NCBI GenBank assembly: GCA_039794045.1
Contig: JBAMLY010000009.1
Span: forward strand, 38,609-102,608
DNA from: Candidatus Micrarchaeia archaeon
GTDB lineage: Archaea; Micrarchaeota; Micrarchaeia; Norongarragalinales; UBA8480
Direction of reading: 5' to 3'
Length of the DNA stretch: 64,000 bases
Both the position numbers and the translations under genes were made by a program. How positions within the stretch are numbered: the stretch's first letter is position 1; each line of letters begins with the position of its first letter. Shown one piece after another: positions 2,703-50,238 of this stretch. Below the pieces are notes generated by a model. It was given only the letters and a program-made list of their open reading frames with translations. It searched no databases and had not been told where the DNA came from.

Positions 2703-4868
<2,166 letters not shown>

Positions 4869-8063: not shown

Positions 8064-8807
8064 TCAGCCGAGAATAGAGTACTTAGACAAATAAATTTGG
8101 ACTTTGAGGCACTCCAGGAAAGGCAGGATTGCGAGCGCATTGACTACTATTGACAAGTAACGCGAAATCATTGCCTGCTCTCCCAACGCCGTCCCCAAAG
8201 CCAGGAAAAGCGCGTCGTTCGCGAGCAACAACAATACTGCAACGCCGAAAAAGCCTGCAACGTAAAACGGCTTGCGCGTCAGCAAAGAAATGCTCCTGCT
8301 GAAAACGTGTCTCGCCTCCAAGTCCTCTAAAACTATTGCTTGGCCAGCGAAAAGCACTGAAAGCGATAACGCGAAAGAGAAAAGCGCTCCAAGGAAAGTA
8401 TGCAAACCGAAATCGTAGAGCAAGTAGTTGACGCCGAAGCTCACGGCGAAAACCGCGGCGTAAACGAGGAACAACTTGAATGTTTGAACCTCTATTTTTT
8501 CGATGTCGCGCGAATTCAAGCGCAACAGCGTCCTCTGCGACTTTATCACAAGGTTTACTGCCACGACAGAGAAAGCGAATAGTAAGAGTGCGAAAACAAG
8601 GGCAGCGAAAATCAGTAAGGCGTCAAAGATCGTCAAGTCGTGGCGAATGCTTCCAAAACGCAGGAAAATGCTTCCCAGGGAAACAAAGTTGGGGAGTACT
8701 AGCGCAAGGGGAAACGAAACCAGGAAGGGAATGCTGAAAAACGAAATGAGTTTGAAGTTGCGGATGTAAGCAGATAAAGCGTGCCTCAACACGGCATAGA
8801 AAGACAT
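8064..8807 (-). CDS. Polytopic membrane protein, unknown function
   Basis: 247 aa with roughly six hydrophobic helices and no recognisable motif. Confidence 0.45.
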   Translation of the reverse strand: MSFYAVLRHALSAYIRNFKLISFFSIPFLVSFPLALVLPNFVSLGSIFLRFGSIRHDLTIFDALLIFAALVFALLLFAFSVVAVNLVIKSQRTLLRLNSRDIEKIEVQTFKLFLVYAAVFAVSFGVNYLLYDFGLHTFLGALFSFALSLSVLFAGQAIVLEDLEARHVFSRSISLLTRKPFYVAGFFGVAVLLLLANDALFLALGTALGEQAMISRYLSIVVNALAILPFLECLKVQIYLSKYSILG

Positions 8808-8859: not shown

Positions 8860-10527
8860 TCAGGAAACAAAGCAGCTCTTCAAGTCCTCCATGACGTTCT
8901 CGTCGCTCAGCCGCGCATCGCATCCTCTGGCGCCGCGGTTGGCAAGGCAATACCATTCCTTGAGTTTTTCAGCAGAAGGAATCTCGCGCACGAGAACCTG
9001 GTTATTTATGAGTACTGCAGGTGCGCCATTTACTCCTGCTTGCGTGACGAAGTCAGCGTCCCTCTCCAGTAAGAACTTGCCTTGCCTTTCAACGCAATCT
9101 GCAATCTTGGTGGCGTTGTAACCAGCTTGCACCGCGCAATCTTGCCATGCCATGGAAGAATTGATTCCGCAAGCAACGTAGGCAGCGAAAGCGCTTGAAT
9201 TAATCGAGAAAGCGCAAGCCTGGCGAGCGTCTTCGTCGAGTTCTGCGGCAGAAGCAGCGTACAAAGAGTTGTTCGCGTAGCGCTTGACAACGAAGCGAAC
9301 GTCAAAAGAAGAGTTTTCAAGAGCGCTGGCAACGTCTCCCACGATCGCCGCCGCCACAGCAGAGGCGGGACACTTTCCCATCGCGAACAAAGTCAGTGAA
9401 TTGTTCTTCGCTTGCCTTTGCAGGAACTTGGAGGGCGCAGTGGAAGCAATTGCTTTCCCGTTCTTGTCCGCGAAAACCAGTGCGGGACTCAACACATAGT
9501 AGCCTCCCACGCTCAACAAGTCGTCTTTAACTTTTTCGTAGCCCTCGCCTTTCTTTACGCTCTCGTCAAAGACAAAGGCTGGAACTCCAGTCAAGCCAAG
9601 GTAGCGCGCCTTGCCTGCGCCAGCAATTGTTGAAACGTCTTCGAATGACGCGTTCAACCCCTTGAAGTAACCTTTTAAAACGCTTACCACTGGCTGCGCG
9701 TCGCAGGGACCACAAGAAGAGTCGGTGAAGACAGTCAAGTTTACTCGTTCTGCCGCGGAGTAAATGCATTTAGCTGAAAGCTTGCCAGCGTCAACGCACT
9801 TGCCAACCGCGCCTTCTCCTGCCGCGCACTCGAAGTCAGCCGAACAAGCTGGAATGCGCGCGCAAGCCTCGTGCGAGGGAATGACGCCGCAAACTGCTTG
9901 CATTACTGAAGTAACGGTTACTGGCTTCTGCAGCAAAGTCGTGTTTACGTAAAGCACTGGCGCGTTGATGGCGCGTACTCTAAGCGCGCTCGCCACGCGA
10001 AAACTCTCTTCAAGCAACTGCTTGCCTTCTTGGCCCTCCGCGCACGCGCTTACCACGTCGTAGTCAACGCCAGTCTGCTTGCCGCAAGTCCTGCCGTCAA
10101 TGCCGTTGGCGCGGCATGCTACAAAATCAAAAAAAATTTCAGGGTAATGTTTTTGAGCGCAAGCTTGCCTGGCGTCCTCGGCGACTTCTTCTTCCCCACC
10201 CTGCGCACGGAAAGCGTAGCCCTCGAATGCCACCACGAAATACATTTGCAGGGAAACATTGGAACCAAATTCTTCGAGGACGCGCTTGACCGCAAGTTCT
10301 GCCTCCTGCGACTTAGAGTCAAGGCCGTTCACGAACAACTCAAGTTTTACTGGCTTGAATTCGTTGTGCTGCTGCGCAACCGGCTCCTTGAACAGGAAAG
10401 CAGCCGCTATGAATAATATTACTATTACTGCCGCGGCCGCGACCCAAACGAGGGCGCCCGACTTCTCTAGCGTGGGCTGTTCCACGCGCTTTTCTGGCTT
10501 GGTTTTTTCCTTTCCTGTTTTCTTCAA
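8860..10527 (-). CDS. Membrane-anchored extracytoplasmic thioredoxin-fold protein with an internal duplication
   Basis: A Lys-rich N-terminus plus one TM helix, then a CGPC thioredoxin active-site motif (VFTDSSCGPCDAQ). The block ARQACA...FVAC appears twice. More than 20 Cys and many N-x-S/T sequons (NVS, NTT, NLT, NAS, NNS, NSS, NAT). Confidence 0.55.
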   Translation of the reverse strand: MKKTGKEKTKPEKRVEQPTLEKSGALVWVAAAAVIVILFIAAAFLFKEPVAQQHNEFKPVKLELFVNGLDSKSQEAELAVKRVLEEFGSNVSLQMYFVVAFEGYAFRAQGGEEEVAEDARQACAQKHYPEIFFDFVACRANGIDGRTCGKQTGVDYDVVSACAEGQEGKQLLEESFRVASALRVRAINAPVLYVNTTLLQKPVTVTSVMQAVCGVIPSHEACARIPACSADFECAAGEGAVGKCVDAGKLSAKCIYSAAERVNLTVFTDSSCGPCDAQPVVSVLKGYFKGLNASFEDVSTIAGAGKARYLGLTGVPAFVFDESVKKGEGYEKVKDDLLSVGGYYVLSPALVFADKNGKAIASTAPSKFLQRQAKNNSLTLFAMGKCPASAVAAAIVGDVASALENSSFDVRFVVKRYANNSLYAASAAELDEDARQACAFSINSSAFAAYVACGINSSMAWQDCAVQAGYNATKIADCVERQGKFLLERDADFVTQAGVNGAPAVLINNQVLVREIPSAEKLKEWYCLANRGARGCDARLSDENVMEDLKSCFVS

Positions 10528-10701
10528 CGCGTCCCACCCTCAAACAAGTAAAAAAATGCGGCTGCCGGGATTTTCAGACGGAAAAGCCTTTGCGGCCTTT
10601 CTTTTTCCGATGAACCCCTTCTCTTCCAGAAAAGGAGTTCTTTTGAACCCGGGTCTCCAGATTGGCAATCTGACGTCCTACCAGGCTAGACTACAACCGC
10701 T

Positions 10702-12381
10702 TCAAAAATCGGAGTAAGGACGGCTTCGCTTCAGCACTAGTATTACTGCTACCACAATTAAAAGAATTGCGACTGCCAACCCCGCCAGCATTCGAGCGTC
10801 GACGCCTGCAACCACAAGCGATTCAGTGGATGGCGTTGAAGAAGCAACTGGAGACTGCGCGGGAGGAATGCTGGCTTCCTGTCCAGAGAAAGACAAGACA
10901 AACTTTTGCGAGAAGGAACGCTTGCCGAAAACAACCCTGATTTCTCCCTCGTGGTTTCCAGGCGCGGGCAAAGGAAAAGCAAACTCGAACCTCTTCTTTT
11001 CTCCCACCTTCAAAGAAAAAGACTGCCTCTCCTCTGCTCCGTCCAGAAAAGCGTAAACGCTCGCCCCGCTTATGTCCTCGCCGCCCTTGTTACGCAACAC
11101 GCACACTAACTTAAAAGAGTCCCCAGAAGAAAGATAAGAGAGCTCGCTTACTTCCACGCCCTCGGCCAACGAAACAGCGCCGCCCTTGCGAGCCGTAATG
11201 TTGGCTTGCGCTTGCGCGCCCAAGCTCGTCACGGAAACAGGGAAAGTGTAAACATAGTTTTCAGCAAGCGAGGAAGGCACTACCACGGTCCAGTTCACTT
11301 CAGTTTCCTCCCCAGCCCGCAAGAACAAGAGCCTGTCCTTCTCGTCGACCACCTTCATTTCAACTGGTGTGGTGGGAACAGAGAGCGACAAAGGCACAGC
11401 CAAGTCTCGTGCGGCGCGCACGCGCGCGGAAACGACTGCAATCGAGCCCTCGCCAAGCGCCTGGGAAGGCACTGAAACGTTGAGGGAAACCAGGCCAGGA
11501 AAACCTTGCTTGGAAGCAAAAGAAAGCGAAGCGCCGCGCTCTATGCGGGCGAGAGACAAGTCCAAAGACCTTCCCTTGCCAGTGATTTCTTCGCGGACTC
11601 CGTCTTGGTCGACTGCCTGCGCGAACTTCAAGTGAGTAGCGTCGAGAACCACTCCCTCGCCGTAAGTCGCGTCGAATGGAACCCACTTGCCGTCTATTGC
11701 TGCCTCAACCCAAGCGTGCGGACCCCAGTCGTCGCCAGTGAAGACAAAGCCTGCCACGAAGCGCGCGGGAATCCCTTGCGAGCGAAGCATCGCAATCAGC
11801 AAGTGAGAGTATTCGCTGCACTTTCCTTTTCTCTGCTCGAAGGCCTCCTGCGACGTTAAGAGGTTGTCCCTGTAAAAACCGAGCCCCTCGTACTCTAACG
11901 CGTTGTGAACCCATTCAGTCAAGCGCGTTGCTTTCACCCAATCACTTGCGTTCCCTGCCACTTCCGCTGCCTTGGAACGAATTTCCGGGGAAATTAGTAC
12001 GTACTCGCTTTCACCCAAGTAACGCTGCGCCTCGGAAGCGCTAGCTTCTTGAAAGCCGCGCGAGTAGTCCACGGAAATGCGAGCATTCAAGTAAACCTGG
12101 CTTGGCTTCGCGCTGGAATCTAACGCGAAAACAATTACGTGGTTGCCGAAAGCGTCTTCACTCGCAGAAAAAGGAGAAAAAGCAAGAATTTCGCGGGCTT
12201 GGTGCGCGTCACTAAAAAAATCGTAGGACTTCAACTGTAAATCGCTCGCCGCCTGCCCCCCTAAGTCCACTGCCCAAGAAAGGCGGGCGTCTACTACAGC
12301 GCTGCCAATCATTTTCGGCGAGAAATCGATTGCGGCCGCCAACCCCGAAAGCAACACTAAGGCGAACACGAAGCGCTTCAT
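10702..12381 (-). CDS. Secreted transglutaminase-like (papain-fold) enzyme with C-terminal TM anchor; start moved to MKRFVF
   Basis: Signal peptide MKRFVFALVLLSGLAAA and a transglutaminase core with Cys (GKCSEYSHLL), His (GPHAWVEA) and Asp. C-terminal TM helix plus KRSRPYSDF tail. The ORF-track start at 12459 would overlap the adjacent tRNA. Confidence 0.75.
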   Translation of the reverse strand: MKRFVFALVLLSGLAAAIDFSPKMIGSAVVDARLSWAVDLGGQAASDLQLKSYDFFSDAHQAREILAFSPFSASEDAFGNHVIVFALDSSAKPSQVYLNARISVDYSRGFQEASASEAQRYLGESEYVLISPEIRSKAAEVAGNASDWVKATRLTEWVHNALEYEGLGFYRDNLLTSQEAFEQRKGKCSEYSHLLIAMLRSQGIPARFVAGFVFTGDDWGPHAWVEAAIDGKWVPFDATYGEGVVLDATHLKFAQAVDQDGVREEITGKGRSLDLSLARIERGASLSFASKQGFPGLVSLNVSVPSQALGEGSIAVVSARVRAARDLAVPLSLSVPTTPVEMKVVDEKDRLLFLRAGEETEVNWTVVVPSSLAENYVYTFPVSVTSLGAQAQANITARKGGAVSLAEGVEVSELSYLSSGDSFKLVCVLRNKGGEDISGASVYAFLDGAEERQSFSLKVGEKKRFEFAFPLPAPGNHEGEIRVVFGKRSFSQKFVLSFSGQEASIPPAQSPVASSTPSTESLVVAGVDARMLAGLAVAILLIVVAVILVLKRSRPYSDF

Positions 12382-12434: not shown

Positions 12435-12542
12435 TGCCGCTGGTGTGATTTGAACACACGACATACCGGTCTTCAGCTTCGTCACCCCCGGCGCTTGACG
12501 CGCCGCGGATTCGGACGCTCTCCCAGTCTGAGCTACAGCGGC
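12435..12542 (-). tRNA. Intron-containing tRNA, probably tRNA-Phe(GAA), with a ~34-nt intron at a non-canonical position
   Basis: Reverse complement: acceptor stem GCCGCTG/CAGCGGC, D-arm GCTC-AGACTGGGA-GAGC, T-arm GTGTG-TTCAAAT-CACAC, discriminator A. An anticodon-loop candidate CTGAAGA lies next to CCGGT. About 34 extra nt (containing the hairpin GGCGCGTCAAGCGCC) sit 5' of the loop, and I could not place exact exon-intron borders by eye. Confidence 0.55.
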
Positions 12543-12876: not shown

Positions 12877-12998
12877 CGGACCCACTGGGATTCGAACCCA
12901 GGTCAAGAGCTGTCTGCAATCAGTCTGCCGCGAGCGCGGCAGTCATGAGACCGCGATTTCCGCAAGCTCCCATTCTATCCAGGCTGAACTATGGGTCC
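12877..12998 (-). tRNA. tRNA-Arg(GCG) with a 48-nt canonical intron (37/38)
   Basis: Reverse complement: GGACCCA-TA-GTTC-AGCCTGGATA-GAAT-G-GGAGC-TTGCGG[48-nt intron]A-GCTCT-TGAC-CTGGG-TTCGAAT-CCCAG-TGGGTCC-G. Mature length is 74 nt and all stems pair. Confidence 0.8.
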
Positions 12999-13127
12999 TC
13001 GTTTGTTGCGCCGTGCTGGGGGACGGCAATAGTTTTTTGCAGGACAACCTATAAAAACAACTTGTTGCAGAATATTGTCCGCTGCTTTTCGTCGTTCGCG
13101 TTTGAAGCAGTGTTTTGGTGGTCTGCA

Positions 13128-13277
13128 ATGGCTTTTTGCTCGAGTTGTGGTAGGGAAACGAGTGACTACACTAAGTTTCCTTGCCCGAACGCGTCCTGCA
13201 ACGAGGTCGTGGTTAGGTGCAAGCCTTGCCGCGAGAACGAAGTTTCTTACGAGTGCTGCGGCTTTAAAGGTCCTTGA
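13128..13277 (+). CDS. Small Zn-ribbon protein (COG2888-like, translation-associated)
   Basis: 49 aa: MAFCSSCGRE...CPNASCNEVVVRCKPCRENEVSYECCGF with paired CxxC motifs. It is translationally coupled to the downstream gene by an ATGA-type overlap. Confidence 0.5.
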   Translation: MAFCSSCGRETSDYTKFPCPNASCNEVVVRCKPCRENEVSYECCGFKGP

Positions 13278-13705
13278 TTGCGATGACTGGGCGCGTGATG
13301 GCTTTCGGTACTTTTGACGTGCTTCACTTGGGCCACCTCAAGTTTTTTGAGGCGGCTCGGCGGCTGGGAAGCGAGCTCGTCGTCGTGGTGGCGCGCGACT
13401 GGATAGTCGAGAAAGTAAAAGGGCGAAAGCCTTTTTTTTCTGAGGGCGAGCGGCTTGAACTCGTTTCAGCGCTCAAGCCGGTAGACAAGGCCGTGCTCGG
13501 CTGCGAGGGAAACAAGTACGAAGTGATAAAACGCTTCAAGCCAGATGTAGTGGTGTTGGGCTACGACCAAAAAGATGACGCAAGGGTTTTGCGTGCGAAG
13601 CTTGACGAGATGGGCTTGAAGAAGACGAGGGTTGTTCGCTTGAAGCCTTTCGCGACGGGCAAGCACAAGAGTTCGCGAGTGAAAGAGTTTTTGAGGAAGT
13701 GTTGA
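13274..13705 (+). CDS. ribL: FAD synthase RibL (CTP-dependent archaeal FMN adenylyl/cytidylyltransferase)
   Basis: GTFDVLHLGH nucleotidyltransferase motif, and VVVARDWIVEKVKGRKPFFSEGERLELVSALKPVDKAVLG which closely matches archaeal RibL. Length 143 aa. Confidence 0.8.
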   Translation: MIAMTGRVMAFGTFDVLHLGHLKFFEAARRLGSELVVVVARDWIVEKVKGRKPFFSEGERLELVSALKPVDKAVLGCEGNKYEVIKRFKPDVVVLGYDQKDDARVLRAKLDEMGLKKTRVVRLKPFATGKHKSSRVKEFLRKC

Positions 13706-37670: not shown

Positions 37671-38036
37671 GTGGTTGGAGTGAGCGAGTTCAAGCAAGCA
37701 ATAATAATTCGCTGCGACCTCGGAATGGGGAAAGGAAAAATGGTGGCGCAAGGAAGCCATGCGTCGCTCCTCGCCTTTGAGGAAGCCCTAAAGAAAAACG
37801 AGGAAGCCGCGCGCGCTTGGCAAGCGAGCGGAAGCAAGAAAATAGTTCTGAGGGCTGCAAGCGAAAAAGAACTCGTCGAACTATACGCTAAAGCAAGGAA
37901 GGCAAGACTGCCTGCAGCGCTCGTAGTTGACGCGGGGCACACGCAAATAGAGGCGGGCACGAAGACCGCAGCTGGCATCGGACCAGCAGAAGAAAGCGCG
38001 CTTGACAAGATCACTGGAAAACTCAGGTTGTTATAG
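37671..38036 (+). CDS. pth2: Peptidyl-tRNA hydrolase Pth2 (archaeal type)
   Basis: 121 aa: KQAIIIRCDLGMGKGKMVAQGSHASL...GIGP, characteristic of Pth2. Confidence 0.85.
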   Translation: MVGVSEFKQAIIIRCDLGMGKGKMVAQGSHASLLAFEEALKKNEEAARAWQASGSKKIVLRAASEKELVELYAKARKARLPAALVVDAGHTQIEAGTKTAAGIGPAEESALDKITGKLRLL

Positions 38037-38088
38037 CGCTGCCACAAAGCTTTTTGAACACTCGCCGCATTCTATTTTTGAGCGCAAA

Positions 38089-39645
38089 ATGGCTTACTTG
38101 GACGAATTGATAGGGAAAGCGAAAGCGCAAAAAAAGGGAGTGGCTGGGCTCACGCCTGGCACGAAAGAACCAGAAAAGCCAGGCGGGCCAGAAAAAGAAA
38201 AAGTGTTGATTGACACTTACGACTCAGTCCACATCTACCGCGTGCCAGGAGAAGCCCTCTACTTCTACGAAGTCCCAACCCCGCGCTACCGCGGCGAAGA
38301 AAAAGCCTTGATTCAAGCCCTCATGGACATCGCAAGCAAAGTAATAGAAAGCGAGCACGAAGTCCCCCGCACTCTAGAGCAAAAGCGTTTCGCTTACAAG
38401 CAAAAAATCCTTGACATAATAGAGTCAACGCCGGAACTCAAAGTGCCGCCTGCCGCTAAAGAATTTTATGCTGACGCGGTAGTGCGCGAGATGGTAGGCT
38501 GGGGCTTGATAGACCCGCTCCTGGAAGACGAGTGGCTTGAAGATGTTATGGTGAACGGCCCAAACCAGCCAGTCTACGTCTTCCACAGGAAATACGACAT
38601 GATGAAGACGAACATAGTCTTCTACGACGACAAAGACATTCGCGACTTGATAGACCGCATCGCGCGCACCATAGGACGCCACATAGACATTCAAACCCCT
38701 TTGCTGGACGCGAGGCTCCCCGACGGAACGCGCGTGAACGCAACAGTGCCGCCAGCGAGCTTGAACGGCTCCACTTTGTCAATAAGAAAGTTCCGCACCG
38801 ACCCAATAACCATAATAGACTTAGTAAACTACGGCACGCTCAACTACGAAGTGGCCGCGTTTCTTTGGCTGGCAGCCGACGGCTTCGGAGCAAAGCCAGC
38901 CAACATGATAATAAGCGGCGGCACGGCAAGCGGGAAGACGACGCTATTGAACGTCATCTCGTCACTGGTGCCGAACAGCGAGCGCGTCATCACAATAGAA
39001 GACACTGCTGAACTCAACTTGCCGCTGGAGCAATGGGTTCGCTTTGAAACAAGGCCTCCTGGCGTGGAGGGCGGCGGCGAACTCACGATGGACATGCTGT
39101 TAAAGAACTCGCTGCGCATGAGGCCAGACCGCATCATTGTCGGCGAAATCCGGGGAGAGGAAGGACACACTCTTTTCTCGGCGATGAACACAGGACACGA
39201 CGGCTGCCTTGGAACGCTTCACGCAAACAGCGCGCGTGAAACCCTCATTCGCCTCAGCAACCCGCCAATCAACGTTCCCCTCATAATGCTTTCTTCCCTC
39301 AACTTCATCATAATGGAGCAGAGAATCAATGACCGCCGCAAGGGACTCATTCGCCGCATCACGGAAATAGCGGAAGTGATTTCAGTAGAGGAAAACAAGA
39401 TGCCCGAACTCCAAGTAATCTATCAATGGGACCCCGCAAAAGACGTCCTGCAAAGCACTGGAATGAATCCCTTGTACTTCCAAGTACTGCAGCGCTACAC
39501 GGCCTACACCAAGGACGTCATAGAAGAAGAACTCAAAAACCGCGCCAACATATTGAGGGAACTAAACTCGCGTGGCGTGCGCAGCCTCTCTGACGTGTGC
39601 GCCGTAACCCACAACTACATCTTGCGCACTCAAGGAAAACTGTGA
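38089..39645 (+). CDS. Type IV pilus assembly ATPase (FlaI/PilB/TadA-like); start moved to MAYLDEL
   Basis: Walker A ISGGTASGKTT, Asp/His boxes (RPDRIIVGEIRG, GTLHANS). It heads a locus with PilC-like genes and many prepilins. Confidence 0.85.
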   Translation: MAYLDELIGKAKAQKKGVAGLTPGTKEPEKPGGPEKEKVLIDTYDSVHIYRVPGEALYFYEVPTPRYRGEEKALIQALMDIASKVIESEHEVPRTLEQKRFAYKQKILDIIESTPELKVPPAAKEFYADAVVREMVGWGLIDPLLEDEWLEDVMVNGPNQPVYVFHRKYDMMKTNIVFYDDKDIRDLIDRIARTIGRHIDIQTPLLDARLPDGTRVNATVPPASLNGSTLSIRKFRTDPITIIDLVNYGTLNYEVAAFLWLAADGFGAKPANMIISGGTASGKTTLLNVISSLVPNSERVITIEDTAELNLPLEQWVRFETRPPGVEGGGELTMDMLLKNSLRMRPDRIIVGEIRGEEGHTLFSAMNTGHDGCLGTLHANSARETLIRLSNPPINVPLIMLSSLNFIIMEQRINDRRKGLIRRITEIAEVISVEENKMPELQVIYQWDPAKDVLQSTGMNPLYFQVLQRYTAYTKDVIEEELKNRANILRELNSRGVRSLSDVCAVTHNYILRTQGKL

Positions 39646-39657
39646 GGCCTTCAGTGA

Positions 39658-40797
39658 ATGCCTGAAAGCAAGCTGGAAAAAATAAAGCGCGCCGTGGAAA
39701 AAACAGAGCTTGAAACCCGCGCCGAAGTCTTGAAGGAAGAAGAGCTGGCGCGCCGCCGCGAACTCGACGAAATAATCGCAAAACTCAAGGAAAAACAAAA
39801 AAAAGGTTTTGTGGCAGAAAAGCGGCTGGAAAAAATAAAGGAGCACGTAGAAGAAAAACCAGAAATAAGCGAGGAAGAAACCAAGGCAGCAATCCGCTTG
39901 CAAGTAAGCAAGACGAAGGGAGTAGGCTGGTTTTACTCTTCCCTGCAAAAACCCATAACTTCAGTGTCAAAAGTTTTCTCTGTTATTCCAGTCGCAAAAA
40001 ACTTGAAGAAAGAACTCGCAAGCGCAGACATGCACATCACGCCAGAAGCCTACCTCGCCCTAACTACCACGGTCTCCGTCATAGCCGCAATAACTACTTG
40101 GATTGCCGCAGGCATTCTAGCGACTAGCTTGAGTAACTTGAGTGTAATAGAAATAGCTTCATCTATCTCGCTTGCCTTCGTTGGAGCAGTGCTGGCGTTC
40201 TTCGGGGTTTCTGCAGTCGCGCTCGCTTACCCTTCAATTCGCGCGTCCGAGCGAGCAAACAAAATAGACAAGGAACTGCCGTTCGCGTTGCGCCACCTCG
40301 CCACTCAACTCAAGGCCGGCGTGAGCCTCAACCGCGCAATGCGGTCAGTCGCGGACGCCAACTACGGCGCACTCACGCAAGAGTTCAGAAAAACGCTCGC
40401 TGACTTGGAGAGCGGCTTGAGCACGGAAGACGCGTTATTGAAGCTTGCAGACCGCAACCGCTCTCGAGGCCTAAAGCGCGCGGTAGTGCAAATAACGCGC
40501 GCGATCAGGACGGGCGGAAACCTCGCCGAAATAATTTCATCCATAGCAGACGACATCTCGTTTGAGTCCCGCATGAAAATACGCGACTTCACGGAAATGC
40601 TGAACATAATAAGCATAGTCTACATAATGGTAGGAGTAGTCGCGCCAGTAATGATAACCATTCTGTCCGCCGTAGCCCAGCTGCCAGTGTTCGGTGGCGG
40701 GATAGCATTCGGATTAGTGCTCGCAGTGTTCGCGGGAATAGTGGGCGCTACTGGCGCCCTCATCTTCCTAATCAAGAGACTAGAACCAGTAGCGTGA
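39658..40797 (+). CDS. Type IV pilus platform membrane protein (TadC/FlaJ/PilC-like)
   Basis: 379 aa with a coiled-coil N-terminus, then TM helices and a GspF/TadC-like cytoplasmic segment (LPFALRHLATQLKAGVSLNRAMRSVAD). Follows the ATPase. Confidence 0.65.
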   Translation: MPESKLEKIKRAVEKTELETRAEVLKEEELARRRELDEIIAKLKEKQKKGFVAEKRLEKIKEHVEEKPEISEEETKAAIRLQVSKTKGVGWFYSSLQKPITSVSKVFSVIPVAKNLKKELASADMHITPEAYLALTTTVSVIAAITTWIAAGILATSLSNLSVIEIASSISLAFVGAVLAFFGVSAVALAYPSIRASERANKIDKELPFALRHLATQLKAGVSLNRAMRSVADANYGALTQEFRKTLADLESGLSTEDALLKLADRNRSRGLKRAVVQITRAIRTGGNLAEIISSIADDISFESRMKIRDFTEMLNIISIVYIMVGVVAPVMITILSAVAQLPVFGGGIAFGLVLAVFAGIVGATGALIFLIKRLEPVA

Positions 40798-40801
40798 AAA
40801 A

Positions 40802-41845
40802 ATGACTTCGCTTTCGCAGCAGTGGGAAAACTTGAAGCGCTACTATGCGGCAACCGGCTTCCGAATAAGCCTGCCTGCCTTCATGGCGGTGATGCTGGCT
40901 TTCGCGGCAATAGCTGCCATGGCAAGCCTTGCGTTAATTCAACTCTTGCCGCCGGACTTGAAGCAGAACGCCCCCATAGTCGCGGCAGCATGCTTTGCAG
41001 CAATAATTTCGTTAATCATAGGCATTCCCGTTACGATCAGAAACAACCGCATTTCAGCAATAGAAAATAACTTGCCTGACGCGCTCAAGCACATGGCTTT
41101 AGTATTAAAGGCAGGCGGAACCACTGAAGCCGCGCTAGAAGAAGTGGCGAACGCAGACTACGGCCCACTCAGCGCAGACCTCAAAATTGGCTTGAAGGGC
41201 TTGAAGGAAGGAAAGCCGTTCGACGACGTGCTCCGCGAAACCGCAATAAACACTGGCTCGGTGTTGTTCAACAGGACTAGCGCAATAATGGTTGACGCGC
41301 GCCGCGCTGGCGCTGGCTTGGCAGATGTCATGAACGCGGTGGGAGACGACGCGCGAGACATTCTCCGCATCGGGCGCGAGCGAAAGAGTAGGACGATGAT
41401 GCACGTAATGTTCCTAATAATTTCAGGGTTGTTTCTCTCGCCATTCATTTTCGGCTTCACGATGAGCATTGTTTCCTTCATGTCTTCCGGAATTGCAGTG
41501 AGCGGCACAGGGCTCGGCGAAAGCGGGAGCACCGTCAACATGACAATCGCAGACTGCAGGGTTCCCTGCCTCATTCAAACCGACCCAGTAATGGCTGGCT
41601 TTCTCGCGGCCGGCCTTGCTCCCTTGAACACCGTAAAGCCATTGTACGAGTGGAGGCTCAACGCAATGGACCAGCTTTTAATGGTTTTCCTCGCAATAGT
41701 TTCAATAGTCACGCTCGTAGCAATAGGAGTTATAAGGGAAGGAAAACTGTTCAAGTACGTGCTTTACTTCCCCTTCGCCATACTCGCAGTAATAGTAATA
41801 TATTTGGCTGGAAAAATATTCAGTGGATTCATTATTGGGTCGTGA
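40802..41845 (+). CDS. Second TadC/FlaJ/PilC-like platform membrane protein
   Basis: 347 aa, paralogous in layout (LPDALKHMALVLKAGGTTEAALEEVANADYG). Tandem with the 39658 gene, as split PilC halves would be. Confidence 0.65.
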   Translation: MTSLSQQWENLKRYYAATGFRISLPAFMAVMLAFAAIAAMASLALIQLLPPDLKQNAPIVAAACFAAIISLIIGIPVTIRNNRISAIENNLPDALKHMALVLKAGGTTEAALEEVANADYGPLSADLKIGLKGLKEGKPFDDVLRETAINTGSVLFNRTSAIMVDARRAGAGLADVMNAVGDDARDILRIGRERKSRTMMHVMFLIISGLFLSPFIFGFTMSIVSFMSSGIAVSGTGLGESGSTVNMTIADCRVPCLIQTDPVMAGFLAAGLAPLNTVKPLYEWRLNAMDQLLMVFLAIVSIVTLVAIGVIREGKLFKYVLYFPFAILAVIVIYLAGKIFSGFIIGS

Positions 41846-41849
41846 AAAA

Positions 41850-41951
41850 ATGAGGGCGCAAACAGCAATAGAATACCTTCTCTTGATAGCGATGGCGGTT
41901 GTCGCGGTAACCGCCATAACTTACTTCGTGAAAACGGTTTTGTCGCGGTGA
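41850..41951 (+). CDS. Minipilin (33 aa) with class III signal peptide; absent from the ORF track
   Basis: MRA|QTAIEYLLLIAMAVVAVTAITYFVKTVLSR, with Q+1 and E+5. I found it by reading the sequence, and it is below the ORF-track size cutoff. Confidence 0.45.
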   Translation: MRAQTAIEYLLLIAMAVVAVTAITYFVKTVLSR

Positions 41952-41958
41952 AAGAAAA

Positions 41959-42165
41959 ATGGATGAAAAAGCACAGGGAGCATTCGAGTACATTTTAATG
42001 CTGGCAGGCATTCTCTTGATCGTGGTCGTAATAATAATGGTGGTGAAGTCCAACATTCTCTCGCCGGCCACAGGGACAGTAGAACAAACAACTGGTCAAT
42101 ACCAGCAAACCACTAACTGTAGTGACTTGAACGCTTCAACGCTGCAGGAATGCTTGAACAAATAA
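41959..42165 (+). CDS. Short pilin (68 aa), class III signal peptide MDEKA|QGAFEY
   Basis: The signal peptide and helix are nearly identical to the four major pilin paralogs, but the C-terminal part is short (2 Cys, sequons NCS, NAS). Confidence 0.6.
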   Translation: MDEKAQGAFEYILMLAGILLIVVVIIMVVKSNILSPATGTVEQTTGQYQQTTNCSDLNASTLQECLNK

Positions 42166-42179
42166 GGAAGGTGAAAAAA

Positions 42180-42602
42180 ATGGGTTTTGCGCCGCGAAAG
42201 GGACAGGGAGCCTTCGAGTACATATTATTGCTCGCTGGCATTCTCTTAATAGTAGTAATCGTAATAATAGTCCTCAAAAGCGGTTTGACGCAGCAGTCGA
42301 GCACGAACATTGGAGAGTCAAGCGAGAAAATCCGCGTGAACGCGGCAGTGCGGTGCCTAGACTTCTGCGGCGACGGCGCGTGGGCTTGGGTAAAGTCAGC
42401 TAACTCGTCGATAACGCTTCAATACAACTCTTCTTGCCCGATTGCCGCAGGACTCAATGGAACTCCTAATTGCTTCTGGACTGGAAGCGACAACGCCGTC
42501 GGCTGCAACGCCACGTGGTCTACTGGAAGCAGCGTCTACGCCAACACTCCGCCCAACAACGCGAAATTCTGTCAGTTGGCGCAGCAGAGCTCGAGCAGCT
42601 GA
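42180..42602 (+). CDS. Major pilin paralog 1 (class III signal peptide, 6-Cys framework)
   Basis: MGFAPRKG|QGAFEYILLLAGILLIVV, then CLDFCGDGAW and C..NC..GCNAT..FC. Sequons NSS, NSS, NGT, NAT. RBS AGGAAGGTG upstream. Confidence 0.75.
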   Translation: MGFAPRKGQGAFEYILLLAGILLIVVIVIIVLKSGLTQQSSTNIGESSEKIRVNAAVRCLDFCGDGAWAWVKSANSSITLQYNSSCPIAAGLNGTPNCFWTGSDNAVGCNATWSTGSSVYANTPPNNAKFCQLAQQSSSS

Positions 42603-42610
42603 GCGCCACC

Positions 42611-42643
42611 CCTCTTTTTATTTTTATTCAAACTATTTTTTTC
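42611..42643 (+). promoter_or_regulatory. AT/T-rich intergenic element (TTTTTATTTTTATT): putative TATA/BRE promoter for pilin paralog 2 and T-rich terminator for paralog 1
   Basis: This is the only AT-rich stretch between the two pilin ORFs and lies about 20-30 nt upstream of the ATG at 42644. Confidence 0.35.
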
Positions 42644-43081
42644 ATGCCACGAAAACGCGGGCAAGGAGCTTTTGAATACATCTTGTTAGTCGCAGGCATT
42701 CTGTTAATCGTGGTCGTCGTCGTCTTGCTCTTGAAGTCAGGCGTAGTGCAAGGCGCGCAGAAAAACGTTGGCGAAAGCAGTGGAAGGCTTTCCGTGAACA
42801 GCAAGATAAGCTGCCTAGATTTCTGCGGCGAAGGGGCTTGGAGTTACGTGGCGAACGCCGAGCCAAGCGCGCGCGTGACGCCTTACGTTGACGCGTGCAC
42901 TCTCGCGGAAGGAGTGAACGGCAACGCTTCCTGTTTTTACGGTGAAAGCGACGCGGCTGCGCGCGACGGCGCCTACCATTACTGGTGCAACGCATCCAAC
43001 GTGACTGGAATGCAGAAGTACGCAAACACGCGTCCCAACAACCAGTTGTTCTGCGGCTACGTGCGCGAAAACGCTCCCTGA
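42644..43081 (+). CDS. Major pilin paralog 2; start moved to MPRKRG|QGAFEY
   Basis: Same signal peptide; CLDFCGEGAW, AC..SC..WCNAS..FCGYV. Sequons NAS, NAS, NVT. Confidence 0.75.
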   Translation: MPRKRGQGAFEYILLVAGILLIVVVVVLLLKSGVVQGAQKNVGESSGRLSVNSKISCLDFCGEGAWSYVANAEPSARVTPYVDACTLAEGVNGNASCFYGESDAAARDGAYHYWCNASNVTGMQKYANTRPNNQLFCGYVRENAP

Positions 43082-43099
43082 AAAGAATTTATATCGCGG

Positions 43100-43588
43100 T
43101 TGATTATTGGCTTAAACGGTTTGAGAGAGATTAAATTGAGAATTCCAGAGTTTGGGAAAAGAGGCCAGGGAGCCTTTGAATACATTTTGCTCGTCGCAGG
43201 CATTCTGCTCATCGTCGTGCTCGTCATACTACTCCTAAAGGGCGGGCTGGTGTCGCAAAGCGGTGCCAACGTGGCCGAGTCAGGCGAGAAAGCACGCATA
43301 AACAGCGAAATAAATTGCCTGCAATTCTGTGGCGCTGGCGCGTGGAAGTACATAACGCCAAATGCGAAGGGTAATTACACTAATTGCACTGTAAGAGAAG
43401 GAATAACCGGCAATCCGGCGTGCTTCTGGAACGCCAGCACTGGCGACACGGCAACCTGCAACGTCACTGCAGTTCTCATCGAGGCAGGCTATACTCCATC
43501 CGAGGCAGCAAAATACTACAATGTAACGCCCGCCAACACTGACTTCTGCGGCTACGTAAGGCAGACCGCCAAGGAAAGCACGAGGTAA
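43100..43588 (+). CDS. Major pilin paralog 3 (start uncertain: TTG at 43100, 43121 or 43136)
   Basis: ...EFGKRG|QGAFEYILLVAGILLIVV; CLQFCGAGAW, NC..AC..TCNVT..FCGYV. Sequons NYT, NCT, NAS, NVT, NVT. A TTTATAT box sits at about 43088. Confidence 0.7.
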   Translation: MIIGLNGLREIKLRIPEFGKRGQGAFEYILLVAGILLIVVLVILLLKGGLVSQSGANVAESGEKARINSEINCLQFCGAGAWKYITPNAKGNYTNCTVREGITGNPACFWNASTGDTATCNVTAVLIEAGYTPSEAAKYYNVTPANTDFCGYVRQTAKESTR

Positions 43589-43686
43589 GCAACGCGACCC
43601 ACCCGTGACTTTAAAAAAGCCACGAAATTTATTTTTAAAGAAGTGAACGCCTTCGAGGCGTTAAAAAGAATGGAGGGAAAAAGAAA

Positions 43687-44157
43687 ATGGTGCCCACCTT
43701 GAATTTAAAAAAGAAGAAAGGGCAGGGAGCCTTCGAGTACATCTTGCTCGTCGCAGGCATTCTGCTCATCGTAGTAATCGTGGTCTTCCTGTTGAAGGGA
43801 GGACTGCAAGCGCAAGCCGGAAGCGGCGGTGTAGTAAGCACGAGCACGGAAAAAATCAACATCAACGTGGAAAGCCAGTGCTTGGACTTCTGCGGCCCGG
43901 GCGCTTGGGCAGCGTACGGAGTGCAAAACAGTGACTTCGCAAACACTAATTGCACTCTCGCCGAAGGAGTAAACGGCAACAGCAGCTGCTACTACTCTGC
44001 AACCACTATAGGCAATAACGGCTTATGTAACGCGACTTACGTCTTAAAGCCCGGCGTTGCGCAAAGCAAGGGCTTACTGAACTCAAGTGGCGCCACGGTA
44101 GTACACCCGCAGAACACGCAGTTCTGCACTTACGTGCGCCAAGCAAGAGCAGGCTAG
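43687..44157 (+). CDS. Major pilin paralog 4
   Basis: MVPTLNLKKKKG|QGAFEYILLVAGILLIVV; CLDFCGPGAW, NC..SC..LCNAT..FCTYV. Sequons NCT, NSS, NAT, NSS. GGAGGG RBS upstream. Confidence 0.75.
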   Translation: MVPTLNLKKKKGQGAFEYILLVAGILLIVVIVVFLLKGGLQAQAGSGGVVSTSTEKININVESQCLDFCGPGAWAAYGVQNSDFANTNCTLAEGVNGNSSCYYSATTIGNNGLCNATYVLKPGVAQSKGLLNSSGATVVHPQNTQFCTYVRQARAG

Positions 44158-44235
44158 AACTTCCCGCTTTTCCCCCTTTTTTTATTTCTTCTTTTCCCTA
44201 AACCTTTTTATTGAAGGCGGGCCTGCAATAAAGTC

Positions 44236-44406
44236 ATGGACGAGCGAGCGCAGACCGCCACTGAGTACTTGCTTATTCTAGCGCTTGGCCTCGTCTTGCT
44301 CGGCGTCGTGCTCGCCATGGCTTTGCGCCTCCGCGACTTCAGCAACGTCTTGACCGGCCGCGTGGCAGAAGAAAGAAACAATACCTTGTCGATGCTAGTC
44401 AGCTGA
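44236..44406 (+). CDS. Minipilin (56 aa) with class III signal peptide; absent from the ORF track
   Basis: MDERA|QTATEYLLILALGLVLLGVVLAMAL.... The start mirrors the ORFs at 1846 and 41959. Confidence 0.5.
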   Translation: MDERAQTATEYLLILALGLVLLGVVLAMALRLRDFSNVLTGRVAEERNNTLSMLVS

Positions 44407-44439
44407 ACTAATTTTATACCAGCGGCGCTACTTGATTGC

Positions 44440-45492: not shown

Positions 45493-45916
45493 GAGAGGAC
45501 AGTTGGGAATAGAGTTTTTCTTGGTGGTGGCGTTCGTGCTTGTTCTCGGCAGCGTCTTGAGTGCTTCCGTGGACGAGCAAGTCATTGCCGCGAGGGCCTT
45601 AGACAGGGCTGCGCTAGCGAAAAGCGCGGTGGATGCAGTGTCTCACGCAATAAACCTCGTCACGCTGGAAGGCAACGGGGCTCTTGCCAGCAGAGAAGTT
45701 TTCTTTCCAGCTGAAACGCAGTGCATCCAGTACAGCAGCGCACGCAAGGCGCTTTACTGCGATGTCGCGGGAGCAGGCAAGGTTTACGGCGTAGCGCTTT
45801 ACCGCGAGCCGACAGTGTTACTGAATTGTTTTTCTTCAGGCACTCAAGGCTGGTTCCTTGTGACCGTGAATGGAACCAGCAATGGAGCGCAAGTTAATTG
45901 TACTAAACTGGGTTGA
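45482..45916 (+). CDS. Pilin-like protein (class III signal peptide MAFKRG|QLGIEFF), TTG start
   Basis: Q+1 and E+5, a hydrophobic helix and 3 Cys. It overlaps the peptidase stop by 11 nt. Confidence 0.6.
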   Translation: MAFKRGQLGIEFFLVVAFVLVLGSVLSASVDEQVIAARALDRAALAKSAVDAVSHAINLVTLEGNGALASREVFFPAETQCIQYSSARKALYCDVAGAGKVYGVALYREPTVLLNCFSSGTQGWFLVTVNGTSNGAQVNCTKLG

Positions 45917-45922
45917 AGTTGT

Positions 45923-48343: not shown

Positions 48344-48373
48344 CTCTTTTAAACCGAGGCGAGTAATGTTTTC

Positions 48374-50192: not shown

Positions 50193-50238
50193 GTTTTTCG
50201 CAAGGATTTAAAGAGGAAACAACTCTTACTAGTAAGGG

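What the first reader, a model, noticed from the sequence alone, without database searches (positions are those of the whole stretch)
8860..12381. Extracytoplasmic CGPC thioredoxin-fold protein and secreted transglutaminase-like enzyme, both sequon-rich, next to the tRNA cluster
The 555-aa protein has an N-terminal anchor, a canonical CGPC thioredoxin motif, an internal duplication (ARQACA...FVAC twice) and more than 20 Cys. Its neighbour is a secreted transglutaminase-like enzyme (Cys-His-Asp) with a C-terminal TM anchor. An extracellular thiol-disulfide oxidoreductase is notable here because the pilins in this window carry a conserved six-Cys framework. I therefore suggest this protein is the Dsb-like factor that oxidises them, and that the transglutaminase-like enzyme could process or cross-link surface proteins.
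Basis: partly seen in the sequence, partly recalled or inferred. Interest (0 to 1): 0.5.

Follow-up and report, generated by a model that had tools for sequence, protein, structure and literature searches.

The report
Surface GILT/DsbA-like redox protein plus transglutaminase-like neighbour
A tiny symbiotic-type archaeon (Micrarchaeia) encodes a membrane-anchored, sugar-decorated, three-domain thioredoxin-fold protein whose closest solved relative is the animal lysosomal reductase GILT; it probably handles disulfide bonds of exported proteins in general, and nothing ties it specifically to the pilins or to the transglutaminase-like enzyme next door.

Summary
Gene 8860-10527(-) encodes a 555-aa protein with one N-terminal membrane anchor, CGPC, a real internal duplication, 20 invariant Cys (not more than 20) and 10 sequons against 2.1 expected. 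Gene 10702-12381(-) encodes a secreted, C-terminally anchored transglutaminase-fold protein with an invariant Cys188-His222-Asp237 triad.

The 555-aa protein has three thioredoxin-fold domains:
- D1 is GILT/DsbA-like and has lost its active-site Cys.
- D2 is a small thioredoxin-like domain carrying CGPC.
- D3 is GILT/DsbA-like and keeps only the first Cys (CPAS), which co-occurs with Cys in the C-terminal tail.

The family has no conserved neighbours. A transglutaminase-like gene lies within 7 kb in 2 of 80 loci, and pilus genes in 3 of 80. In this clade a tRNA-Gly gene separates the two genes.

Best reading: a general, PDI-like extracytoplasmic thiol-disulfide oxidoreductase. The dedicated pilin-oxidase idea is unsupported, though not excluded. 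Interest is moderate.

The parts
8860..10527 (-). Gene for the 555-aa membrane-anchored GILT/DsbA-like three-domain thioredoxin-fold protein (TTG start, stop at 8860-8862)
   Evidence: ORF. It is 100% identical to an NCBI 'hypothetical protein' of a Candidatus Micrarchaeia archaeon MAG. Pfam hits, AF2 model, fold matches.
10390..10458 (-). Signal-anchor transmembrane helix (aa 24-46), preceded by a Lys-rich cytoplasmic N-terminus
   Evidence: Hydropathy and charge. The AF2 model has a helix at aa 27-44. Translation checked.
9883..10356 (-). D1 (aa 58-215): GILT/DsbA-like Trx fold with a helical insert. The active-site Cys is lost: NGLDSK replaces the family motif MSQCP[YF]G, and Asp70 aligns with Cys386 of D3.
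   Evidence: Pfam GILT hit at aa 103-144 (21.5 bits, just under the 22.4 cutoff). Alignment of D1 to D3. Family motif. Inferred Cys pairs 123-162 and 138-148 from presence/absence covariation (phi 0.95).
9754..9882 (-). Cys-rich hairpin linker (aa 216-258). Cys222 pairs with Cys213 of D1. The Cys quartet 228/234/244/254 is an insert present in about 46% of family representatives.
   Evidence: phi 0.94 for 213-222; 0.96-1.0 within the quartet. AF2 strands at aa 240-245 and 253-258.
9490..9753 (-). D2 (aa 259-346): small thioredoxin/glutaredoxin-like domain with CGPC (aa 272-275, nt 9703-9714) and an invariant cis-Pro-type Pro316
   Evidence: TIGR00411 MJ0307-family thioredoxin, E 3.4e-7. Pfam Thioredoxin_2. 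The profile matches P. furiosus PDO 1a8l at E 6.7e-10 across D2 and into D3. The CxxC is kept in about 85% of 152 representatives and Pro316 in 152 of 152.
8938..9405 (-). D3 (aa 375-530): GILT/DsbA-like Trx fold with the single-Cys motif CPAS (aa 386-389, nt 9361-9372)
   Evidence: Pfam Thioredoxin_4 at aa 377-513, 29.8 bits, above the 23.2 cutoff. AF2 model. Family motif CP[YF][GA]. Inferred pairs 438-478 and 453-464.
8863..8937 (-). C-terminal tail (aa 531-555) with Cys536 and Cys552. Together with Cys527 these co-occur with the D3 active-site Cys386 across the family.
   Evidence: A tail Cys was present in 106 representatives, all of which have the D3 Cys, and in none of the 30 that lack it. 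Phi is 0.92 with the Cys536 equivalent.
10557..10700 (-). tRNA-Gly(GCC) with a 71-nt intron in the T-loop. It lies between the two protein genes and is followed by a T-run.
   Evidence: Read by eye. Partial Rfam match. The orthologue in L001 is intronless and those in L002/L003 have a different intron. The in-silico spliced sequence is called tRNA-Gly by ARAGORN.
10702..12381 (-). Gene for the 559-aa exported transglutaminase-fold protein. Layout: signal peptide aa 1-18, beta-sandwich aa 27-105, core aa 118-270, Ig-like beta domains aa 279-498, disordered Ser/Pro linker aa 503-528, TM anchor aa 529-552.
   Evidence: Transglut_core E 3.7e-23. PDB 3isr E 6.6e-12. AF2 pLDDT 89.4. Foldseek finds 3isr, then animal TG2/TG3/FXIII.
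11671..11820 (-). Catalytic triad codons: Cys188 (11818-11820), His222 (11716-11718), Asp237 (11671-11673)
   Evidence: Invariant in 38 Micrarchaeota orthologues. Codons checked.
8064..8807 (-). Gene for a 247-aa polytopic membrane protein of unknown family (one Cys), 52 nt downstream. It is conserved next to the GILT-like gene only in the four closest contigs.
   Evidence: Absent from 80 wider family loci. It is part of the local synteny block, and no functional tie has been shown.
12435..12542 (-). tRNA-Phe(GAA) with an intron. It overlaps the upstream extension of the mechanical transglutaminase ORF.
   Evidence: Rfam 44.4 bits. ARAGORN with introns allowed.
12877..12998 (-). tRNA-Arg(GCG) with an intron
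   Evidence: Rfam 47.8 bits. ARAGORN with introns allowed.

Best explanation
The 555-aa protein is a type-II membrane-anchored, N-glycosylated ectoprotein of a large, uncharacterised prokaryotic family. The family is built from two GILT/DsbA-like thioredoxin-fold domains flanking a small CxxC thioredoxin-like domain.

It most likely works like a cell-surface protein disulfide isomerase or oxidoreductase for exported Cys-rich proteins in general.
- D2 (CGPC) and D3 (Cys386 of CPAS, together with Cys in the C-terminal tail) form the redox-active unit.
- D1, which has lost its catalytic Cys, serves as a non-catalytic, substrate-binding or scaffold domain. This is the role of the b/b' domains in PDI.
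- The six-Cys pilins and the protein itself, with about 10 disulfides, are plausible clients. It is not a dedicated pilin factor.

The neighbouring gene encodes an independent, Micrarchaeota-wide, surface-anchored transglutaminase-fold Cys-His-Asp enzyme. It could be a protease or a cross-linker, and the direction is unknown. Its adjacency here is clade-specific synteny, not a functional module.

Shown: the fold, the domain layout, the motifs, the conservation, the distribution and the lack of conserved context.
Inferred: the outside topology, the Cys pairings, redox activity and its direction, and the clients.
For: - Redox features. CGPC follows beta1 and precedes the helix that starts at aa 278 in D2, and Pro316 is invariant in 152 of 152. 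The CxxC is kept in about 85% of representatives. At least one CP[YF]G Cys is kept in 150 of 152. Loss of the D2 CxxC goes with loss of the D3 Cys (16 of 23) but not of the D1 Cys (1 of 23), so D2 and D3 behave as a unit.
- Tail Cys. It is found only where the D3 Cys is present: 106 representatives with it against 0 without.
- Outside topology. The N-terminus is Lys-rich with net charge +4, followed by a single TM segment. There are 10 sequons against 2.1 expected, five of them conserved in position. Twenty invariant Cys fall into covarying pairs. Twenty-two of 152 representatives carry lipoprotein-type signal peptides.
- General rather than pilus-linked. There are at least 597 species hits across DPANN, CPR, Myxococcota and Spirochaetales, and no neighbour cluster occurs in more than 8 of 80 loci once an antisense artefact is set aside. 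Pilus genes occur in 3 of 80 loci and a transglutaminase-like gene in 2 of 80.
- Transglutaminase-like protein.. Its orthologues elsewhere are not next to a GILT/DsbA gene. A tRNA-Gly gene with a T-run separates the two genes.
- Clients exist. Three pilins with six aligned Cys, plus further Cys-rich pilin-like proteins, lie in the window.
- Precedent. An MdbA-like oxidoreductase was proposed to fold pilins in CPR bacteria (PMC6744442).
Against: - No activity data exist for any family member.
- The xx dipeptide of the D2 CxxC is hypervariable across the family (CGAC, CAEC, CADC, CKDC and others). That is unusual for a tuned redox site and would fit a structural disulfide.
- About 15% of representatives lack the CxxC.
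- D1 is catalytically dead, and D3 lacks the resolving Cys of a CxxC.
- No DsbB, VKOR or CcdA-type partner was seen in the window. This rests on inspecting the polytopic ORFs only; the rest of the genome was not available.
Those statistics leave two pairing schemes open.
- GILT-fold domains can be non-catalytic binding modules. The plant VSR1 Trx-like domain matched 15 of 35 relatives.
Confidence: 0.5

Rival explanations
1. First reader's reading. The protein is the dedicated Dsb-like oxidase that introduces the disulfides of the six-Cys pilins, and the transglutaminase-like enzyme processes or cross-links those surface proteins.
For: - The ectoprotein has a Trx fold and a CxxC.
- Three pilins with six aligned Cys and a complete type IV pilus-like locus lie in the same window.
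- Pilin-folding oxidoreductases are known in Actinobacteria and have been proposed for CPR bacteria (PMC6744442). V. cholerae DsbA (TcpG), which is required for pilus formation, is among the fold matches.
Against: - The pilus locus is about 28-33 kb away.
- In 80 family loci, pilus-type genes lie within 7 kb in only 3, and there is no conserved neighbour.
- The family occurs in many lineages irrespective of pilus context.
- The motif is CGPC rather than a DsbA-type CPHC.
- No reoxidising partner was found.
- Adjacency to the transglutaminase-like gene is limited to four close contigs and is interrupted by a tRNA gene.
Confidence: 0.1
2. Net reductase, GILT-like. The protein reduces disulfides outside the cell, either to proofread mis-oxidised exported proteins or to unfold external or host-derived disulfide-rich proteins for uptake by a nutritionally dependent DPANN cell.
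For: - The closest solved structure is the reductase GILT.
- CGPC is the classical thioredoxin (reductant) motif.
- D2 resembles MJ0307-type thioredoxins and PDO.
- The family is enriched in episymbiotic DPANN and CPR lineages.
Against: - A sustained reductase outside the membrane needs an electron conduit of the CcdA/DsbD type, and none was seen nearby.
- The GILT-like domains lack GILT's CxxC.
- The family also occurs in free-living Myxococcota.
Confidence: 0.2
3. Non-catalytic surface glycoprotein. The Trx folds are rigid, disulfide-stapled scaffolds or ligand-binding modules for adhesion or host contact, and the CxxC is merely a structural disulfide.
For: - D1 has lost its active-site Cys, and D3 has only one.
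- The CxxC dipeptide is hypervariable and is absent in about 15% of representatives.
- GILT-like folds serve as non-catalytic binding domains in plant VSR1, which matches the family.
- The protein is heavily sequon-decorated, as surface proteins are.
Against: - At least one CP[YF]G Cys is retained in 150 of 152 representatives.
- The cis-Pro-type prolines are near-invariant: Pro316 in 152 of 152, Pro190 in 141 and Pro503 in 133.
- The CxxC is kept in about 85% despite free variation of the residues between the two Cys. This is the signature of selection on active-site geometry.
Confidence: 0.15

Closest known systems
[quoted passage not shown]
   Different: - GILT is a single-domain eukaryotic enzyme with a CxxC active site.
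- Here two GILT-like domains are fused around an extra Trx domain and anchored in the membrane.
- D1 has no active-site Cys and D3 has CPAS.
- This particular protein scores just under Pfam's GILT cutoff (21.5 against 22.4 bits).
- A 2008 survey stated that no prokaryotic GILT homologues were known (PMC2398784).
Gram-positive-type DsbA oxidases (S. aureus DsbA 3bci, B. subtilis BdbD 3eu3, Actinomyces/Corynebacterium MdbA 4z7x; Pfam Thioredoxin_4/DSBA)
   Same: - Both are membrane- or lipid-anchored extracytoplasmic Trx folds with a helical insert.
- The family's cis-Pro loop is of the G-S/T-P-T type (GSPT/ASPT; NAPV and GAPA in this protein).
- Thioredoxin_4 scores above its gathering cutoff for D3.
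- MdbA folds pilins (PMC6744442).
   Different: - No CxxC lies in either DsbA-like domain.
- The architecture has three domains.
- There is no adjacent VKOR or DsbB.
- The Pfam DSBA score is below its cutoff (21.2 against 25.6).
Protein disulfide oxidoreductase (PDO) of Pyrococcus furiosus (1a8l), and eukaryotic PDI as an architectural analogue
   Same: The profile match is E 6.7e-10, spanning D2 and the start of D3. The D2 CxxC aligns with the PDO N-unit CQYC, and the D3 family motif MSQCPYG aligns with the C-unit CPYC. The mix of catalytic and degenerate Trx domains in one chain resembles PDI's a-b-b'-a' layout; this comparison is from general knowledge.
   Different: - PDO is cytoplasmic, has two units, and has CxxC in both.
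- Here the second site is monothiol, and the flanking domains carry GILT/DsbA-type helical inserts.
- This protein is exported and glycosylated.
Transglutaminase-like superfamily (PF01841), for example the Cytophaga hutchinsonii putative cysteine protease 3isr and animal TG2/TG3/factor XIII
   Same: - The neighbour scores 82.3 bits against Transglut_core.
- Its Cys-His-Asp triad is invariant.
- 3isr is the best sequence hit (E 6.6e-12) and the best Foldseek hit (E 4e-16, TM 0.65).
- The overall order of beta-sandwich, core and beta-barrel domains recalls animal transglutaminases.
- Exported archaeal transglutaminase-like proteins have been proposed as cell-wall cross-linkers (PMC11915815).
   Different: It is anchored by a C-terminal TM segment through a disordered Ser/Pro linker. 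The substrate and the reaction type (protease, amidase or cross-linker) are unknown. The orthologue set is restricted to Micrarchaeota.

Membership tests
Thioredoxin-fold superfamily | beta-alpha-beta ... beta-beta-alpha fold | tested here: met
Thioredoxin-fold superfamily | CxxC at the N-terminus of helix 1, plus a cis-Pro loop | tested here: met
   Met for D2 only. CGPC is at aa 272-275, between strand 262-268 and helix 278-287, and Pro316 is invariant in 152 of 152 representatives. D1 has no Cys at this site and D3 has CPAS.
DsbA family (PF01323 / PF13462) | Trx fold with an inserted helical domain | tested here: met
DsbA family (PF01323 / PF13462) | Score above the curated Pfam cutoff | tested here: inconclusive
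   Thioredoxin_4 scores 29.8 against a cutoff of 23.2 (met). DSBA scores 21.2 against 25.6 (not met).
DsbA family (PF01323 / PF13462) | Redox-active CxxC within the DsbA-like domain | tested here: not met
   D1 reads NGLDSK, with Asp70 at the Cys position. D3 reads CPAS. The family consensus is CP[YF][GA].
DsbA family (PF01323 / PF13462) | A reoxidising membrane partner (DsbB or VKOR) in the genome | not testable with these tools
   None was recognised among the polytopic ORFs of the 64-kb window or among the neighbours in 80 family loci. The complete genome could not be searched.
GILT family (PF03227) | GILT fold, including the disulfide-stapled helical insert | tested here: met
GILT family (PF03227) | Score above the curated Pfam cutoff | tested here: not met
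   This protein scores 21.5 bits against a cutoff of 22.4. However, 30 of 35 relatives match at E <= 1e-3, best E 6e-26.
GILT family (PF03227) | CxxC active site | tested here: not met
   The second Cys is absent in both GILT-like domains, in this protein and in most of the family.
Transglutaminase-like superfamily (PF01841) | Score above the curated cutoff, and the papain-like core fold | tested here: met
   82.3 bits against a cutoff of 23. Foldseek finds 3isr at E 4e-16, followed by animal transglutaminases.
Transglutaminase-like superfamily (PF01841) | Cys-His-Asp catalytic triad | tested here: met
   C188, H222 and D237 are invariant in 38 orthologues.
Transglutaminase-like superfamily (PF01841) | Transamidase or protease activity | not testable with these tools
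   Needs biochemistry.
Pilus-associated oxidoreductase (TcpG/MdbA-like functional class) | Genomic or phyletic association with pilus genes | tested here: not met
   Pilus-type genes lie within 7 kb in 3 of 80 family loci. In the window the pilus locus is about 28-33 kb away.

The most novel reading that the evidence does not exclude
The family may be a self-contained extracytoplasmic disulfide relay of a new design. A monothiol CP[YF]G cysteine in a GILT-like domain would pair with a cysteine on a flexible C-terminal tail, forming a 'split' active site. That site would exchange with the adjacent CxxC thioredoxin domain. This would give DPANN archaea, CPR bacteria and others disulfide catalysis without a classical DsbA/DsbB or VKOR pair. 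The family may also represent the prokaryotic stock from which eukaryotic GILT and the VSR Trx-like domain derive.
Probability: 0.15. Interest if true: 0.65.

Novelty: new variant of a known kind. Interest (0 to 1): 0.35.

Why it matters
How archaea make and repair disulfides in exported proteins is poorly understood. This applies especially to the reduced-genome DPANN lineages, which live by surface contact with hosts.

This window shows an organism that exports many Cys-rich, sequon-rich proteins, including pilins. It also carries a conserved multi-domain GILT/DsbA-like ectoprotein from a family that spans DPANN, CPR and several bacterial phyla, and that nobody appears to have characterised in the literature searched.

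If the family is catalytic, it is a candidate general oxidative-folding or isomerase factor for these organisms. It would also be a prokaryotic counterpart of GILT, which was once thought to be restricted to eukaryotes.

The specific instance here is otherwise ordinary. Both genes are recognisable members of known superfamilies, and their adjacency carries no demonstrated meaning.

Tried and rejected
- ARAGORN with default settings found no tRNAs. The 'tRNA cluster' appeared only with Rfam, intron-aware ARAGORN and reading the intergenic sequence.
- A second word-indexed homologue search with the 35-sequence alignment returned only the same four proteins, so that search was wasted. The exhaustive HMM search is what revealed the family.
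- The search for related loci with the 35-sequence alignment failed because no stretch was conserved enough. It worked with a 10-sequence alignment led by P0005, so the 80 loci are biased towards members with an intact MSQCPYG motif.
- The afdb50 fold library was unavailable.
- The largest 'neighbour cluster' (9 loci) proved to be antisense ORFs overlapping the family gene in GC-rich Myxococcota, and was discarded.
- The bacterial sigma-70 and intrinsic-terminator scan gave counts at shuffle level. It does not apply to an archaeon.
- I considered the 247-aa downstream membrane protein as a DsbB/VKOR-like partner and rejected it. It has one Cys and no family hit, and it is absent from wider family loci.
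- I considered the transglutaminase and Trx genes as an operon or module and rejected it. A tRNA gene with a T-run lies between them, and the adjacency is not conserved outside four close contigs.
- Exact disulfide geometry could not be checked, because the model coordinates are not exposed by the tools.

Full report
**Source and gene models.** The 555-aa product of 8860-10527(-) is 100% identical to an NCBI 'hypothetical protein' from a Candidatus Micrarchaeia archaeon MAG, a DPANN archaeon. The neighbouring ORF is listed mechanically as 585 aa from a GTG at 12459. That extension overlaps an intron-containing tRNA at 12435-12542(-).

**Checking the observation.**
- The 555-aa protein has one hydrophobic segment (aa 24-46) after a Lys-rich N-terminus.
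- It has CGPC at aa 272-275.
- It has exactly 20 Cys, and 10 N-x-S/T sequons against 2.1 +/- 1.3 in composition-preserving shuffles.
- All 20 Cys are invariant in the three closest homologues at 40-53% identity.
- Five sequons are conserved in position in all four proteins.
D1 and D3 align at 31% identity over 145 residues (pairwise E 2e-9), and the four helical-insert Cys are in register.
- The transglutaminase-like protein hits Transglut_core at E 3.7e-23.
- Its C188/H222/D237 triad is invariant in 38 orthologues. It has a signal peptide and a C-terminal TM segment.
- Its sequon count (4 against 1.5 expected) is only marginal.
- The pilus locus at 38002-50856 contains a T2SSE ATPase, two T2SSF proteins, an archaeal A24 prepilin peptidase and class-III-signal pilins. 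Three paralogous pilins share six aligned Cys.

**Anatomy of the 555-aa protein.** With a 35-sequence alignment, AlphaFold2 gives pLDDT 89.7 and pTM 0.78. The layout is as follows.

| Part | Residues | Features |
|---|---|---|
| TM helix | 27-44 | signal anchor |
| D1 | about 58-215 | Trx fold with a helical insert |
| Linker | 216-258 | Cys-rich hairpin |
| D2 | 259-346 | small Trx/Grx-like domain with CGPC ahead of the helix at 278-287, and Pro316 before strand 317-320 |
| D3 | 375-530 | second Trx fold with a helical insert |
| Tail | 531-555 | docked tail carrying Cys536 and Cys552 |

Structural and profile matches:
- A profile of the family matches P. furiosus PDO across D2 and into D3 at E 6.7e-10. 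In that alignment CxxC aligns with CQYC, and MSQCPYG aligns with TPTCPYC. The same profile matches GILT across D1 at E 6e-9.
- Pfam on this protein alone gives Thioredoxin_4 above its cutoff for D3. GILT falls just below its cutoff for D1, and Thioredoxin_2 and TIGR00411 match D2.

**The family.** An exhaustive HMM search finds 2364 cluster representatives at E <= 1e-3 and 295 at E <= 1e-30. A scan of one genome per GTDB species returns at least 597 confirmed hits. These come from Altiarchaeota, Woesearchaeota, Micrarchaeota, Nanoarchaeota, CPR bacteria (Gracilibacteria, Kuenenbacteria), Spirochaetales and Myxococcota/Deltaproteobacteria. Sources name members 'DsbA family protein', 'thioredoxin domain-containing protein' or 'hypothetical'.

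- In the wider family, D1 and D3 each carry a single-Cys motif, MSQCP[YF]G, in place of a CxxC. D2 carries a CxxC whose middle residues vary freely.
- The window's subfamily (four sequences) has replaced the D1 motif by NGLDSK-type sequences and keeps CPAS/CPY[AL] in D3.
- Thirty of 35 relatives hit Pfam GILT, best E 6e-26.
- A 2008 paper stated that no GILT homologues were known in prokaryotes (PMC2398784). I found no paper in the held library describing this prokaryotic family.

**Cysteine bookkeeping.** Presence/absence correlations over 152 representatives give the following pairs, in this protein's numbering.

| Cys pair or group | phi | Note |
|---|---|---|
| 123-162 | 0.95 | D1 helical insert |
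| 138-148 | 0.95 | D1 helical insert |
| 213-222 | 0.94 | D1 to linker |
| 228/234/244/254 | 0.96-1.0 | quartet, present in about 46% of representatives |
| 272-275 | 0.95 | the CxxC of D2 |
| 438-478 | 0.92 | D3 helical insert |
| 453-464 | 0.95 | D3 helical insert |

- The D3 active-site Cys386 co-occurs with Cys536 (phi 0.92), Cys527 (0.78) and a Cys within the last few residues (0.75).
- A terminal Cys occurs in 106 representatives that have the D3 Cys, and in none of the 30 that lack it.
- By analogy with D1, where the 213-222 equivalents behave as a pair independent of the active-site Cys, I favour 527-536 plus 386-552. The alternative pairing (386-536, 527-552) is not excluded.
- Only 2 of 152 representatives lack both CP[YF]G cysteines. 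Loss of the D2 CxxC goes with loss of the D3 Cys (16 of 23) but not of the D1 Cys (1 of 23). This suggests that D2 and D3 act as one functional unit, and that unit is intact in the window protein.

**Topology.** No predictor was available. Four lines of evidence all indicate that the Trx domains lie outside the membrane:
- the positive-inside N-terminus with a single TM segment;
- sequon enrichment, with sites conserved in position;
- ten inferred disulfides;
- lipobox signal peptides in 22 of 152 mostly bacterial homologues.

**Context.**
- The order transglutaminase-like gene, tRNA-Gly, GILT-like gene, 247-aa membrane protein gene, topoisomerase gene recurs in three other Micrarchaeia contigs. 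This is general synteny of close relatives.
- The intervening tRNA-Gly(GCC) at 10557-10700(-) ends in a T-run about 30 nt before the GILT-like start codon. A strict operon with the transglutaminase gene is therefore unlikely.
- In 80 wider family loci, no neighbour cluster occurs in more than 8 loci once an antisense artefact is removed.
- In those same loci, transglutaminase-like genes occur in 2, the 247-aa protein in 0, and pilus-type genes in 3.
- Transglutaminase orthologues in three more distant Micrarchaeota have unrelated neighbours.
- A different Micrarchaeota subclade has a DUF2085 membrane protein 2-10 nt upstream of its intact-type family member in 7 contigs. This is a lead for a partner, and it was not tested.

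**The transglutaminase-like protein.** AF2 gives pLDDT 89.4. The model shows a signal peptide, an N-terminal beta-sandwich, the core (aa 118-270), Ig-like beta domains up to aa 498, a disordered Ser/Pro linker and a TM anchor. Foldseek finds the Cytophaga putative cysteine protease 3isr first, then animal TG2, TG3 and factor XIII. About 50 full-length orthologues were found, and all of those that carry a source name come from Micrarchaeota. Whether it cleaves or cross-links cannot be decided from sequence. Exported archaeal transglutaminase-like proteins have been proposed as wall cross-linkers in pseudomurein archaea (PMC11915815).

**Interpretation.** The most economical reading is a general, PDI-like extracytoplasmic thiol-disulfide oxidoreductase.
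- It has one degenerate domain (D1) and one intact redox unit (D2 with D3 and the tail).
- It is encoded beside, but not functionally tied to, a surface transglutaminase-fold enzyme.
- Pilins are plausible clients, because they are abundant exported six-Cys proteins. The analogous idea exists for CPR bacteria (PMC6744442). No evidence here singles them out.
- The direction of catalysis is open. GILT and CGPC point towards reduction or isomerisation. The need of this organism for many extracellular disulfides points towards oxidation or isomerisation.
- A purely structural or adhesive role is the main non-catalytic rival. The hypervariable CxxC dipeptide and the VSR1 precedent support it. The near-universal retention of at least one CP[YF]G Cys and of the cis-Pro prolines argues against it.

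**Verdict.** The thing itself is a new variant within a known kind, the thioredoxin-superfamily ectoproteins, and it belongs to a widespread but unstudied GILT-like family. Interest is moderate at 0.35. It would be higher only if the split-active-site relay or the link to the origin of eukaryotic GILT were borne out.

Noticed in passing
window 10557-10700 (-); L001 about 3945-4018; L002 2011-2120; L003 9885-9990: The tRNA-Gly(GCC) between the two protein genes carries a 71-nt intron in the T-loop, a non-canonical position. The orthologous gene is intronless in one related contig and has a different T-arm intron in two others. ARAGORN with default settings and Rfam at gathering threshold both miss it.
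   Followed up: partly
window 12435-12542 (-) and 12877-12998 (-): tRNA-Phe(GAA) and tRNA-Arg(GCG) both contain introns of about 35-50 nt. Bacterial-mode ARAGORN reported no tRNAs at all in the 64-kb window.
   Followed up: partly
window 8064-8807 (-): A 247-aa polytopic membrane protein with no Pfam or NCBIfam hit and a single conserved Cys. It is very well conserved (for example NLVIKSQRTLLRL and ILPFLECLK) directly downstream of the GILT-like gene in the four closest contigs, and absent from 80 wider family loci.
   Followed up: partly
L006 2126-3034, L007 7083-7991, L034, L043, L046, L070, L075 (immediately upstream of the family gene): In another Micrarchaeota subclade, a DUF2085 membrane protein (motif CHQLPERS...PICSRD) sits 2-10 nt upstream of the intact-type GILT/DsbA-like gene in 7 contigs. 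It is a possible membrane partner and would be worth testing.
   Followed up: no
window 38002-50856 (+): A complete archaeal type IV pilus-like locus: a T2SSE ATPase, two T2SSF proteins, three paralogous class-III-signal pilins with six aligned Cys and 3-5 sequons each, an A24 prepilin peptidase, further Cys-rich pilin-like ORFs, and an embedded TctA-family membrane protein (47198-48343).
   Followed up: partly
family-wide (152 representatives): One of the two GILT-like active-site Cys has been lost repeatedly and independently. D1 is lost in the window clade and in P0088, P0112 and P0114. D3 is lost in about 30 representatives, always together with the C-terminal Cys. The D2 CxxC is usually lost together with the D3 Cys.
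   Followed up: partly
window 12945-13277 (+): The C-terminal part of this ORF encodes a small Cys-rich zinc-ribbon-like peptide (CSSCG...CPNASC...CKPC...). It lies just beyond tRNA-Arg and upstream of a gene at 13274-13705 that, by eye, looks like a cytidylyltransferase/FAD-synthase-type gene (not tested with any tool). It is unrelated to the finding.
   Followed up: no
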